From NCBI RefSeq assembly GCF_003334385.1, contig NZ_QOWN01000002.1: a stretch of 64,000 bases of DNA; one strand, given 5' to 3'. The DNA is from Escherichia coli. GTDB taxonomy: Bacteria; Pseudomonadota; Gammaproteobacteria; Enterobacterales; Enterobacteriaceae. Shown one piece after another: positions 61,101 to 64,000 of this stretch (its first letter is position 1; each line of letters opens with the position of its first letter). The position numbers are program-made.

Positions 61101-64000
61101 GGACGTGCTGGAATTTGGCGGTATTGAGCCAAACCCGGCTTATGAAACGCTGATGAACGCCGTGAAACTGGTTCGCGAACAGAAAGTGACTTTCCTGCTG
61201 GCGGTTGGCGGCGGTTCTGTACTGGACGGCACCAAATTTATCGCCGCAGCGGCTAACTATCTGGAAAATATCGATCCGTGGCACATTCTGCAAACGGGCG
61301 GTAAAGAGATTAAAAGCGCCATCCCGATGGGCTGTGTGCTGACGCTGCCAGCAACCGGTTCAGAATCCAACGCAGGCGCGGTGATCTCCCGTAAAACCAC
61401 AGGCGACAAGCAGGCGTTCCATTCTGCCCATGTTCAGCCGGTATTTGCCGTGCTCGATCCGGTTTATACCTACACCCTGCCGCCGCGTCAGGTGGCTAAC
61501 GGCGTAGTGGACGCCTTTGTACACACCGTGGAACAGTATGTTACCAAACCGGTTGATGCCAAAATTCAGGACCGTTTCGCAGAAGGCATTTTGCTGACGC
61601 TAATCGAAGATGGTCCGAAAGCCCTGAAAGAGCCAGAAAACTACGATGTGCGCGCCAACGTCATGTGGGCGGCGACTCAGGCGCTGAACGGTTTGATTGG
61701 CGCTGGCGTACCGCAGGACTGGGCAACGCATATGCTGGGCCACGAACTGACTGCGATGCACGGTCTGGATCACGCGCAAACACTGGCTATCGTCCTGCCT
61801 GCACTGTGGAATGAAAAACGCGATACCAAGCGCGCTAAGCTGCTGCAATATGCTGAACGCGTCTGGAACATCACTGAAGGTTCCGATGATGAGCGTATTG
61901 ACGCCGCGATTGCCGCAACCCGCAATTTCTTTGAGCAATTAGGCGTGCCGACCCACCTCTCCGACTACGGTCTGGACGGCAGCTCCATCCCGGCTTTGCT
62001 GAAAAAACTGGAAGAGCACGGCATGACCCAACTGGGCGAAAATCATGACATTACGTTGGATGTCAGCCGCCGTATATACGAAGCCGCCCGCTAAGCTTTT
62101 TACGCCTCAAACTTTCGTTTTCGGGCATTTCGTCCAGACTTAAGTTCACAACACCTCACCGGAGCCTGCTCCGGTGAGTTCATATAAAGGAGGAACGTAT
62201 GGCTAATCCAACCGTTATTAAGCTACAGGATGGCAATGTCATGCCCCAGCTGGGACTGGGCGTCTGGCAAGCAAGTAATGAGGAAGTAATCACCGCCATT
62301 CAAAAAGCGTTAGAAGTGGGTTATCGCTCGATTGATACCGCCGCGGCCTACAAGAACGAAGAAGGTGTCGGCAAAGCCCTGAAAAATGCCTCAGTCAACA
62401 GAGAAGAACTGTTCATCACCACTAAGCTGTGGAACGACGACCACAAGCGCCCCCGCGAAGCCCTGCTCGACAGCCTGAAAAAACTCCAGCTTGATTATAT
62501 CGACCTCTACTTAATGCACTGGCCCGTTCCCGCTATCGACCATTATGTCGAAGCATGGAAAGGCATGATCGAATTGCAAAAAGAGGGATTAATCAAAAGC
62601 ATCGGCGTGTGCAACTTCCAGATCCATCACCTGCAACGCCTGATTGATGAAACTGGCGTGACGCCTGTGATAAACCAGATCGAACTTCATCCGCTGATGC
62701 AACAACGCCAGCTACACGCCTGGAACGCGACACACAAAATCCAGACCGAATCCTGGAGCCCATTAGCGCAAGGAGGGAAAGGCGTTTTCGATCAGAAAGT
62801 CATTCGCGATCTGGCAGATAAATACGGCAAAACCCCGGCGCAGATTGTTATCCGCTGGCATCTGGATAGCGGCCTGGTGGTGATCCCGAAATCGGTCACA
62901 CCTTCACGTATTGCCGAAAACTTTGATGTCTGGGATTTCCGTCTCGACAAAGACGAACTCGGCGAAATTGCAAAACTCGATCAGGGCAAGCGTCTCGGTC
63001 CCGATCCTGACCAGTTCGGCGGCTAACATGCAAATTCTCCCGGTGGCGGTAATGTTCCGCTACCGGACTTTTCAGAAATCATTTATTCCCCTCGCGTCCC
63101 GCCCGTTGTTACTCTTCCTTGTTCAGGAATGCCAAATATAAGGACATCATCATGCAGAGCCGGAAGCTCTTAAAAGAACAACTCATCTATATCCGGGATA
63201 AACGCAACGGAGAGGTGAAAAACAGATGAAAATAATACTTCTGTTTTTAGCAGCCCTGGCAAGTTTTACCGTACACGCACAGCCCCCCTCACAGACCGTA
63301 GAACAAACAGTCCGGCATATTTATCAGAACTATAAATCAGATGCCACTGCCCCTTATTTTGGTGAAACCGGAGAGCGGGCGATAACTTCTGCGCGTATTC
63401 AACAGGCGCTTACCCTGAACGACAATCTTACGCTGCCGGGCAATATTGGCTGGCTGGATTATGATCCGGTTTGTGATTGTCAGGATTTTGGCGATCTGGT
63501 GCTAGAAAGCGTTGCGATAACCCAAACTGACGCCGATCATGCCGATGCCGTTGTGCGCTTTCGTATCTTTAAAGATGATAAAGAAAAGACCACGCAGACA
63601 CTGAAAATGGTGGCGGAAAATGGTCGTTGGGTCATTGACGATATTGTCAGCAATCATGGCAGCGTCTTACAAGCAGTTAATAGCGAGAATGAAAAAACGC
63701 TGGCCGCTTTAGCTTCGTTGCAAAAAGAACAGCCGGAAGCCTTTGTTGCCGAACTCTTTGAACATATTGCTGATTATAGCTGGCCGTGGACGTGGGTGGT
63801 TTCCGACTCTTACCGCCAGGCGGTTAATGCCTTCTATAAAACCACCTTCAAGACGGCCAATAATCCCGATGAAGATATGCAAATAGAACGGCAATTTATT
63901 TACGACAATCCGATCTGTTTTGGCGAAGAGTCGCTATTTTCACGCGTTGATGAAATTCGAGCCCTGGAGAAAACCGCCGATTCCGCCCGCATTCATGTTC

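What the first reader, a model, noticed from the sequence alone, without database searches (positions are those of the whole stretch)
62155..62178. Perfect 10-bp stem-loop immediately upstream of the dkgA ribosome-binding site
ctcaccggag-cctg-ctccggtgag lies about 20 nt before the dkgA start and has no U-tract, so it is not a classic terminator. It could be an mRNA processing or stability element, or an attenuator, within the yqhD-dkgA transcript.
Basis: seen in the sequence. Interest (0 to 1): 0.3.

Follow-up and report, generated by a model that had tools for sequence, protein, structure and literature searches.

The report
Conserved hairpin ending yqhD transcripts
The stem-loop between the E. 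coli aldehyde-reductase genes yqhD and dkgA is a real, evolutionarily maintained RNA hairpin, and published RNA-end maps place yqhD transcript ends just after it; it is an ordinary kind of mRNA end-marking and stabilising element, not a new mechanism.

Summary
A perfect 10-bp stem with a 4-nt loop lies at 62155-62178, 20 nt before the dkgA ATG, with no U-tract. The window is the E. coli yqhC/yqhD-dkgA locus.

In 74 Enterobacteriaceae yqhD-dkgA spacers the stem sequence varies but pairing is kept. 94% of cells are paired and 8 of 9 pairs show double-sided changes. There are 109 compensatory cells against 26.5 ± 8.6 in shuffles. The element therefore acts as RNA structure, not as a sequence-specific DNA site.

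A published 3'-end map (TRS, Nat Commun 2023 supplement) places a highly significant yqhD RNA 3' terminus at window 62181-62184, 3-6 nt after the stem.

The tail is not U-rich in other genera (mean 2.1 U in 8 nt). No competing fold exists. DkgA is still co-induced with YqhD. The hairpin is therefore neither a canonical terminator nor a switchable attenuator.

The best reading is a 3'-end-defining, exonuclease-blocking stem-loop that yields a stable yqhD-only mRNA alongside the bicistronic one. This is the class described by Dar & Sorek (2018). Whether the ends arise by weak termination or by cleavage plus trimming is unresolved.

It is a new member of a known kind, of low to moderate interest. 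The near-invariant 32-nt block just upstream (Rfam ES173, furfural-induced) is the more intriguing unexplained feature.

The parts
62155..62164 (+). 5' arm of the hairpin (CUCACCGGAG)
   Evidence: Read directly. Pairs with 62169-62178 in the MFE. Corresponds to alignment A1 columns 66-74.
62165..62168 (+). Loop (CCUG)
   Evidence: Loop sequence and length (3-10 nt) vary freely among orthologs.
62169..62178 (+). 3' arm of the hairpin (CUCCGGUGAG)
   Evidence: Covaries with the 5' arm: 94% of cells paired, 8 of 9 pairs with changes on both sides, 0/500 shuffles reach the observed covariation score.
62179..62186 (+). A/U-rich, U-tract-less tail (UUCAUAUA) carrying the mapped yqhD RNA 3' termini at 62181, 62183 and 62184
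   Evidence: TRS supplementary tables give dominant positions 3156605, 3156607 and 3156608 (+), Signal 0.98/0.92/0.89, adjusted p down to 0, 4.9e-105 and 3.6e-50, Max U-tract 2. Offset.
62144..62154 (+). C/A-rich single-stranded linker between the conserved ES173 block and the hairpin
   Evidence: Unpaired in the MFE. Moderately variable (A1 columns 54-65, identity 0.56).
62112..62143 (+). Near-invariant 32-nt block (CUUUCGUUUUCGGGCAUUUCGUCCAGACUUAA), the core of Rfam ES173. It is the hairpin's constant upstream neighbour and its function is unknown.
   Evidence: Rfam RF02753 match at 62097-62160, 99 bits against a gathering score of 90. Column identity 0.905 against 0.63-0.66 at third codon positions. 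The hairpin stays attached to this block when insertions split the spacer.
62187..62201 (+). dkgA Shine-Dalgarno (AAGGAGG, 62187-62193) and start codon (62199-62201)
   Evidence: The SD is nearly invariant in A1. It is not part of the hairpin.
60931..62094 (+). yqhD coding sequence, the upstream cistron whose short transcript ends at the hairpin
   Evidence: TRS assigns the terminus to yqhD.
63040..63072 (+). Operon-distal terminator after dkgA (CCGGUGGCGG-uaauguu-CCGCUACCGG then ACUUUU), the end of the bicistronic transcript
   Evidence: 3' end at 3157494 in Adams et al. Term-seq and 3157494/5 in TRS, which is window 63070/1. Sequence.

Best explanation
The hairpin is an RNA structure in the yqhD-dkgA intercistronic spacer that defines and protects the 3' end of a yqhD-only mRNA. 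RNA polymerase starting at the YqhC-activated yqhD promoter transcribes through the spacer into dkgA and stops at the terminator at about 63070. Some of the RNA ends up with its 3' end 3-6 nt after the stem (62181-62184). The most likely route (inferred) is that these ends are generated downstream, by endonucleolytic cleavage in the A/U-rich stretch before the dkgA SD or by imprecise termination. They are then trimmed 3'-to-5' by PNPase or RNase II until the -18 kcal/mol stem blocks them. The result is a stable yqhD segment, and a small spacer-derived fragment seen as ES173, alongside the full bicistronic mRNA. This would tune the yqhD:dkgA mRNA ratio without uncoupling their induction. Shown: the hairpin, its selection as structure, the 3' termini next to it, the absence of a U-tract and the absence of a competing fold. 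Inferred: the nucleases, and the effect on stability and stoichiometry.
For: (1) Structure under selection. RNAalifold predicts only this helix in 74 spacers. 94% of cells are paired. There are 109 double-change cells against 26.5 ± 8.6, and the covariation score is 0.499 against 0.213 (0/500 shuffles). Slid controls reach at most 0.178. Stems differ completely between genera, for example CUCACCGGAG, CCAUCGGGGG, UUCACCAGGC and UACCCCGCA.
(2) Stability is conserved: mean dG -19.0 kcal/mol, range -12.3 to -26.4, in 70 orthologs.
(3) Published 3'-end mapping puts significant yqhD termini 3-6 nt after the stem in three tables of triplicate libraries.
(4) No U-tract. E. coli has at most 2 consecutive U. 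Orthologs average 2.1 U in 8 nt, and only 4 of 70 have 5 or more. This matches the class of stable, U-less stem-loops at steady-state 3' ends that protect against PNPase and RNase II.
(5) The hairpin belongs with the yqhD side. In four lineages ERIC-like insertions lie between the hairpin and the SD, and the hairpin stays about 50-60 nt after the yqhD stop. In two Buttiauxella loci it is replaced by a different long stem-loop at the same place.
(6) A 50-500 nt RNA fragment of the spacer (ES173) accumulates and rises 14.6-fold with furfural, the operon's inducer.
(7) One transcriptome study found yqhD induced 26-fold and dkgA 10-fold by glycolaldehyde, which is compatible with more stable or more abundant yqhD RNA.
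Against: Adams et al. 2021 Term-seq tables, as held, list no 3' end in the spacer, only the one after dkgA. The held files may be truncated, and 3'-seq studies are known to disagree. I could not tell which TRS sheets (RNAtag-seq or term-seq) the rows come from, and RNAtag-seq involves fragmentation. ES173's coverage-defined 3' limit (62160) lies inside the 5' arm, not after the hairpin; that limit is a 100-read cutoff in RNase III-fragmented libraries. No nuclease-mutant, Rho-inhibition or half-life data for this locus were accessible. Protein-level induction of DkgA (41-fold) and YqhD (35-fold) with vanillin is similar, so any effect on stoichiometry is modest or condition-dependent. The tight spacing to the ATG in most genera (median 19 nt) could also indicate a role on the dkgA side.
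Confidence: 0.55

Rival explanations
1. It is a weak, U-tract-poor intrinsic terminator. A fraction of polymerases release 3-8 nt after the stem, giving constitutive partial polarity between yqhD and dkgA.
For: RNA 3' ends lie just after a GC-rich stem, with a high TRS signal of 0.89-0.98, meaning low local read-through of read starts. The E. coli tail starts UU and has 4 U in 8. yqhD was induced 26-fold and dkgA 10-fold in one study. The TRS table contains other 'primary' ends with similar U-poor tails, for example talB.
Against: The U content of the tail is not conserved: mean 2.1 of 8, and most Enterobacter and Lelliottia tails have 1 U, while the stem is conserved. The consensus scan does not call it. 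The ends at +3 to +6 are closer to the stem than the usual 7-9 nt (established knowledge of intrinsic terminators). DkgA protein is co-induced as strongly as YqhD. One Term-seq study lists no end here.
Confidence: 0.2
2. It serves the dkgA side. Either it is a 5'-terminal stabilising hairpin of a processed or separately initiated dkgA mRNA, or it is a local structure that insulates the dkgA ribosome-binding site from upstream sequence.
For: In 70 unsplit spacers the hairpin ends a median of 19 nt (range 11-25) before the ATG, leaving the invariant SD outside the stem. ES173's 3' boundary (62160) is near the 5' base of the stem, as expected if cleavage occurs just upstream.
Against: Insertions of 80-170 nt between hairpin and SD are tolerated in at least four lineages, and the hairpin stays with the upstream block. 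No sigma-70-like promoter is found in the spacer. The held Cappable-seq tables contain no entry for this spacer; they may be truncated. gSELEX finds YqhC only at the yqhC/yqhD spacer. Predicted SD accessibility is no better than in shuffled controls. The mapped ends are 3' ends after the stem, not 5' ends before it.
Confidence: 0.12
3. It is a regulated attenuator, a riboswitch-like or leader-controlled terminator/antiterminator switch that controls dkgA.
For: It sits between a highly conserved non-coding block and the dkgA RBS, an arrangement that superficially resembles a sensor plus expression platform.
Against: There is no competing fold: blocking the 3' arm costs a median of 15.6 kcal/mol across 71 orthologs. 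The arms vary while the block is invariant, so no conserved alternative pairing is possible. There is no U-tract and no upstream small ORF with a start codon in the spacer. The SD is not sequestered by the stem. The long-range anti-SD pairing seen in the E. coli MFE is no better than in shuffles (0.245 against 0.224). DkgA tracks YqhD in induction. Rfam finds no riboswitch here.
Confidence: 0.03
4. It is a palindromic DNA operator for a dimeric regulator, for example a second site related to the 24-bp palindrome in the yqhD promoter, which has the same 10+4+10 geometry.
For: The perfect 24-bp palindrome has the same arm and spacer lengths as the known promoter palindrome at 60793-60816.
Against: The arms change completely between genera while complementarity is kept, the opposite of what a sequence-specific operator shows. 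The promoter palindrome, by contrast, is conserved as sequence. The two palindromes share only AGC...CT around the centre (read directly). gSELEX finds a single YqhC site, in the yqhC/yqhD spacer.
Confidence: 0.02

Closest known systems
Protective, U-less 3' stem-loops at steady-state mRNA 3' ends (Dar & Sorek 2018, NAR 46:6797; PMC6061677)
   Same: An energetically stable stem-loop, not followed by a U-rich stretch, with a precise RNA 3' terminus immediately downstream.
   Different: That class was defined for ends of Rho-dependent transcription units. This hairpin lies inside an operon, 8 nt before a strong SD of a translated gene, so Rho involvement is doubtful. Exonuclease dependence is untested for this locus.
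Intercistronic stabiliser hairpins such as REP/BIME elements (for example malE-malF) that block 3'-to-5' exonucleases and cause differential expression within operons (from my own knowledge of the literature; not retrieved here)
   Same: A stable stem-loop between two cistrons of one operon. The upstream cistron's RNA ends at it while the downstream gene is still expressed.
   Different: It is not a repeat family. Both the hairpin and its upstream block are single-copy in 5,413 E. coli genomes, and there is no REP consensus.
Canonical intrinsic (Rho-independent) terminators
   Same: A GC-rich 10-bp stem with a tetraloop and RNA 3' ends shortly after it.
   Different: There is no U-tract in E. 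coli (at most 2 consecutive U) and none is conserved in orthologs. The pattern scan does not call it. The downstream gene is co-induced.
Other 'Alternative primary in TU' termini in the same TRS table, for example dnaK in the dnaK-dnaJ operon (hairpin -25.4 kcal/mol, tail AUUCAU)
   Same: The same annotation class and the same anatomy: an internal operon 3' terminus after a strong hairpin with a U-poor tail.
   Different: A different locus with no sequence relationship. The comparison rests only on the table rows.
Rfam RF02753 ES173 sRNA (Rau et al. 2015, BMC Genomics 16:1051)
   Same: It occupies the same spacer, and its annotated 3' end (62160) overlaps the first 6 nt of the 5' arm.
   Different: The Rfam model covers the upstream block and a different, weakly supported hairpin. 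The hairpin of this finding is not in the model.

Membership tests
Canonical intrinsic terminator | GC-rich stem-loop | tested here: met
   10 perfect pairs, 7 of them G-C, -17.8 kcal/mol.
Canonical intrinsic terminator | U-tract immediately after the stem | tested here: not met
   The tail is UUCAUAUA. TRS lists Max U-tract = 2. The scan makes no call. Orthologs average 2.1 U in 8 nt, and 4 of 70 have 5 or more.
Canonical intrinsic terminator | Factor-independent release of RNA polymerase at the site | not testable with these tools
   Needs single-round in vitro transcription.
Protective U-less 3' stem-loop (Dar & Sorek class) | Energetically stable stem-loop not followed by a U-rich sequence | tested here: met
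   -17.8 to -18.8 kcal/mol with a U-poor tail.
Protective U-less 3' stem-loop (Dar & Sorek class) | Precise steady-state RNA 3' terminus immediately downstream of the stem | tested here: met
   Published TRS tables give dominant ends at window 62181, 62183 and 62184, 3-6 nt after 62178, significant in triplicates. The end is not listed in the held Adams et al. tables.
Protective U-less 3' stem-loop (Dar & Sorek class) | 3' ends extend downstream when PNPase or RNase II is removed | not testable with these tools
   Needs pnp/rnb mutant RNA-seq at this locus. The supplements of PMC6061677 are not held.
Protective U-less 3' stem-loop (Dar & Sorek class) | Rho-dependent termination or a rut site downstream | not tested
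   No bicyclomycin data were accessible. The sequence downstream is a translated gene with a strong SD, which argues against Rho access (inference).
REP/BIME repeat elements | Member of a dispersed repeat family in the genome | tested here: not met
   One locus per genome. The median of 2 'places' is the palindrome matching both strands. The flanking block has a median of 1 place.
Rfam ES173 (RF02753) | Match to the covariance model | tested here: not met
   The model match is 62097-62160 (99 bits). It covers only the first 6 nt of the 5' arm, so the hairpin itself lies outside the family model.
Riboswitch / transcription attenuator | Mutually exclusive alternative structure (antiterminator or anti-sequestrator) | tested here: not met
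   Blocking the 3' arm costs a median of 15.6 kcal/mol. The arms vary while the upstream block is invariant. The anti-SD pairing is no better than in shuffles.
Riboswitch / transcription attenuator | Known aptamer or leader peptide upstream | tested here: not met
   No Rfam riboswitch match at E-value up to 10. No start codon or ORF in the spacer upstream of the stem.
Transcription-factor operator palindrome | Half-site sequence conserved among orthologs | tested here: not met
   Hairpin columns have 0.53 identity with 94% pairing. By contrast, the promoter palindrome is conserved as sequence.

The most novel reading that the evidence does not exclude
The hairpin may be the 3' structural module of a conserved, aldehyde-stress-induced intercistronic regulatory RNA. 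Its 32-nt core (62112-62143) is as conserved as first and second codon positions across Enterobacteriaceae. That core would act as a seed or protein-binding site in trans, as an sRNA or a sponge, or in cis on yqhD or dkgA. The U-less hairpin would replace the usual terminator as the 3' protective stem. The pattern of invariant single-stranded sequence followed by a covarying stem is the typical evolutionary signature of base-pairing sRNAs.
Probability: 0.15. Interest if true: 0.55.

Novelty: new member of a known kind. Interest (0 to 1): 0.25.

Why it matters
yqhD and dkgA are the main NADPH-dependent aldehyde reductases that are manipulated in furfural, vanillin and biofuel strain engineering. 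yqhD is also widely used as a production enzyme. Knowing that the native operon carries a selected hairpin which creates a separate, protected yqhD transcript helps explain unequal mRNA levels of the two genes. It also gives a small, portable, non-terminating stabiliser part. For genome annotation, it is a clean example, supported by covariation, of an operon-internal 3'-end element that terminator predictors miss. It does not change any general concept.

Tried and rejected
(1) Long-range sequestration of the dkgA SD by the segment just after the yqhD stop codon, which appears in the E. coli MFE. Across 69 orthologs P(SD paired with that segment) is 0.245 against 0.224 for shuffled segments. 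Rejected.

(2) The ES173 block as a second YqhC site or internal promoter. Its resemblance to the promoter palindrome reduces to a TCCAG/GAAATG core with a 1-nt indel. There is no sigma-70-like promoter in the spacer. gSELEX reports one YqhC site only. Not supported.

(3) The Rfam ES173 hairpin as a conserved structure. It is 81% paired, but no better than shuffles. It is conserved as sequence, not as structure.

(4) An anti-SD in the 3' arm (CUCC in E. coli). This is not conserved in other genera.

(5) A repeat family. The element is single-copy.

(6) A search for genomes where yqhD or dkgA lacks its partner, to see which gene the hairpin follows. All 80 DkgA loci, plus Klebsiella, Raoultella and Cronobacter, keep yqhD-dkgA adjacent, so this test could not be made. 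The ERIC-insertion loci served instead.

(7) Literature dead ends. The Shinhara 2011 ECS list has no entry here. The held Cappable-seq supplement has nothing for this region. Supplements of Dar & Sorek 2018 and PMC9023263 are not held. Lee 2010 and the Genome Research paper I had in mind are not held. A CsrA modelling paper only names dkgA as a possible dual-mode target.
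Full report
WHAT IS THERE

The end of the window is the E. 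coli yqhC (-) / yqhD (+) / dkgA (+) / yqhG locus. Window position equals MG1655 position minus 3,094,424. At 62155-62178 the + strand reads CTCACCGGAG-cctg-CTCCGGTGAG, a perfect 10-bp stem with a 4-nt loop. It starts 60 nt after the yqhD stop codon and ends 20 nt before the dkgA ATG. The SD AAGGAGG (62187-62193) lies outside the stem. Alone the hairpin folds at -17.8 kcal/mol. In its spacer context it is part of the MFE and centroid, z = -3.73. The tail UUCAUAUA has no U-run, and the terminator scan makes no + strand call. Perfect hairpins of this size are about 25 times more frequent in the window than in dinucleotide shuffles (9 against 0.35).

IS IT SELECTED, AND AS WHAT?

I fetched 80 Enterobacteriaceae loci through DkgA. 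All have yqhD directly upstream, and 73 have a spacer of 98-112 nt. Nearly every one has a stable hairpin at the same position, but the stem sequence differs between genera.

On the alignment of 74 spacers (A1), RNAalifold predicts this helix and nothing else. The pair counts are as follows:
- 94% of cells are paired.
- 8 of 9 pairs have changes on both sides.
- There are 109 double-change cells against 26.5 ± 8.6 in shuffles.
- The covariation score is 0.499 against 0.213, reached by 0 of 500 shuffles.
- Slid controls reach at most 0.178.

Hairpin columns are only 0.53 identical, below third codon positions of the flanking genes at 0.63-0.66. Mean stability is -19.0 kcal/mol. Klebsiella, Raoultella and Cronobacter, fetched through YqhD, also have the hairpin, again with compensatory differences.

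This pattern means selection for base pairing in a single strand, that is, RNA. It excludes a sequence-specific DNA operator. For contrast, the known 24-bp palindrome in the yqhD promoter (60793-60816) is conserved as sequence. The hairpin is single-copy in 5,413 E. coli genomes, so it is not a REP-type repeat.

WHAT DOES IT DO?

Direct evidence comes from a published data set. [quoted passage not shown] Its supplementary tables list a yqhD terminus of class 'Alternative primary in TU'.
- Dominant positions are 3156605, 3156607 and 3156608 (+).
- Signal is 0.98, 0.92 and 0.89, where high means low local read-through.
- Adjusted p-values in triplicates go down to 0, 4.9e-105 and 3.6e-50.
- The authors' own fold of the flank shows exactly this hairpin at -18.8 kcal/mol, with 'Max U-tract 2'.

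In window coordinates the ends are at 62181-62184, 3-6 nt after the last paired base. The bicistronic transcript ends at 63070/1, after a hairpin with a U-run. Two RNA species therefore exist, and the hairpin marks the end of the shorter one.

TERMINATOR, ATTENUATOR OR PROCESSING BARRIER?

A canonical terminator needs a U-tract. E. coli lacks one, and the tail is not U-rich in other genera: mean 2.1 U in 8 nt, and 5 or more in 4 of 70. The stem, by contrast, is conserved.

A regulated attenuator needs a competing fold. Blocking the 3' arm costs a median of 15.6 kcal/mol with no compensating structure. The invariant upstream block cannot co-evolve with the variable arms.

DkgA protein is induced 41-fold and YqhD 35-fold by vanillin, so read-through is substantial. 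One transcriptome study found 26-fold for yqhD against 10-fold for dkgA.

The anatomy is a stable stem, no U-tract and a precise end immediately downstream. This is the class that Dar & Sorek (2018) showed to protect transcripts from PNPase and RNase II after imprecise upstream events. It also works like the classic intercistronic stabilisers of operons; that comparison is from my own knowledge.

I therefore favour a 3'-end-defining, exonuclease-blocking hairpin (confidence about 0.55). The ends would be made by cleavage in the A/U-rich stretch before the SD, or by sloppy termination, and then trimmed back. A weak U-poor intrinsic terminator is the main rival (0.2). The two differ only in how the end is first made, and this cannot be decided with the tools available here.

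WHICH GENE DOES IT SERVE?

In most genera the hairpin ends a median of 19 nt from the ATG, which could suggest a role at the dkgA RBS. Natural insertions argue otherwise.
- In L035, L042, L044 and L075, ERIC-like elements of about 80-140 nt lie between the hairpin and the SD. The hairpin stays next to the conserved block, 50-61 nt after the yqhD stop.
- In L062 a hairpin sits on each side of a 165-nt insertion.
- In L071 and L073 the GC hairpin is replaced by another long stem-loop at the same place.

Predicted SD accessibility does not differ from shuffled controls. No promoter-like site and no second YqhC site is found in the spacer. The held Cappable-seq tables contain no entry for this spacer, though they may be truncated. 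The mapped ends are 3' ends. I give the dkgA-side readings 0.12.

CAVEATS

The held Adams et al. 2021 Term-seq tables list no end in the spacer. The stored files may be cut, and 3'-seq studies are known to diverge. No nuclease-mutant, Rho-inhibition or half-life data for the locus could be accessed. The nucleases and the effect on stability are therefore inferences from the class, not results.

CONTEXT WORTH NOTING

Immediately upstream lies Rfam ES173 (62097-62160; 99 bits). It is a 64-nt intergenic transcript defined by Rau et al. 2015 from a 100-read coverage cutoff in size-selected, RNase III-fragmented libraries. It rises 14.6-fold with furfural, so it is co-regulated with the operon.

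Its core, 62112-62143, has 0.905 column identity, as high as codon positions 1 and 2. The Rfam hairpin in it shows no covariation beyond shuffles. Its function is unknown. Together with the covarying hairpin it has the evolutionary look of an sRNA, with a conserved seed and a variable stem. That is the most novel reading not excluded (probability about 0.15).

VERDICT

The element is a conserved, experimentally end-associated, U-less intercistronic hairpin. It is a new, well-supported member of a known kind, of low to moderate interest (0.25).

Noticed in passing
window 62112-62143 (within Rfam ES173, 62097-62160): A 32-nt non-coding block (CTTTCGTTTTCGGGCATTTCGTCCAGACTTAA) is nearly invariant across Enterobacteriaceae genera. 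Its column identity is 0.905 against about 0.65 at third codon positions. It is single-copy, and its Rfam hairpin shows no covariation beyond shuffles. The RNA fragment rises 14.6-fold with furfural. Its function is unknown.
   Followed up: partly
window 60793-60816 and 60817-60871: The known 24-bp palindrome of the yqhD promoter (ATTTCTCCAG-cact-CTGGAGAAAT) has the same 10+4+10 geometry as the finding and overlaps the annotated yqhC start codon. It and the adjacent motifs GGCAAGACA..GGCAG.AATG.GCATTGAG...CACAAT are conserved as sequence in about 80 genomes.
   Followed up: partly
L035, L042, L044, L075 (spacers 188-239 nt); L071, L073; L062: ERIC-like elements have inserted repeatedly into the yqhD-dkgA spacer, always downstream of the conserved block. 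In four loci they lie between the hairpin and the SD. In two Buttiauxella loci a short ERIC-like stem-loop replaces the hairpin. L062 has a 165-nt insertion of unknown nature flanked by two copies of the hairpin.
   Followed up: partly
L082/L083 3665-3808 (Klebsiella), L084/L085 (Raoultella): These genera have gained an additional long GC hairpin directly after the yqhD stop codon. In Klebsiella it is followed by TTTTT and looks like a terminator; in Raoultella the U-tract is poor. Their hairpin at the position of the finding is weaker: 7 bp with a 9-10 nt loop.
   Followed up: no
window 62097-62101: A run of 5 T right after the yqhD stop codon (TAAGCTTTTTAC) is nearly invariant in the 74-spacer alignment (T8-T10 of A1). 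In E. coli no obvious hairpin precedes it.
   Followed up: no
window 63040-63072: This is the operon-distal terminator after dkgA: a 10-bp stem CCGGTGGCGG/CCGCTACCGG followed by ACTTTT. RNA 3' ends are mapped at 63070/1 in two independent studies. The simple terminator scan missed it because only 4 T fall in the 8-nt window.
   Followed up: partly
window 17940-17970, 33034-33060, 42189-42223, 45767-45792, 52326-52351, 56127-56155, 59809-59834: Seven other perfect hairpins with stems of 10-15 bp and loops of 3-8 nt lie elsewhere in the window. The one at 59809-59834 sits between the convergent yghB and yqhC ends and is probably a bidirectional terminator.
   Followed up: no
MG1655 3156601-3156614 (window 62177-62190): Published 3'-end maps disagree at this site. 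TRS lists a strong terminus, while the held Adams et al. 2021 Term-seq tables list none between 3153564 and 3157494 on the + strand.
   Followed up: partly
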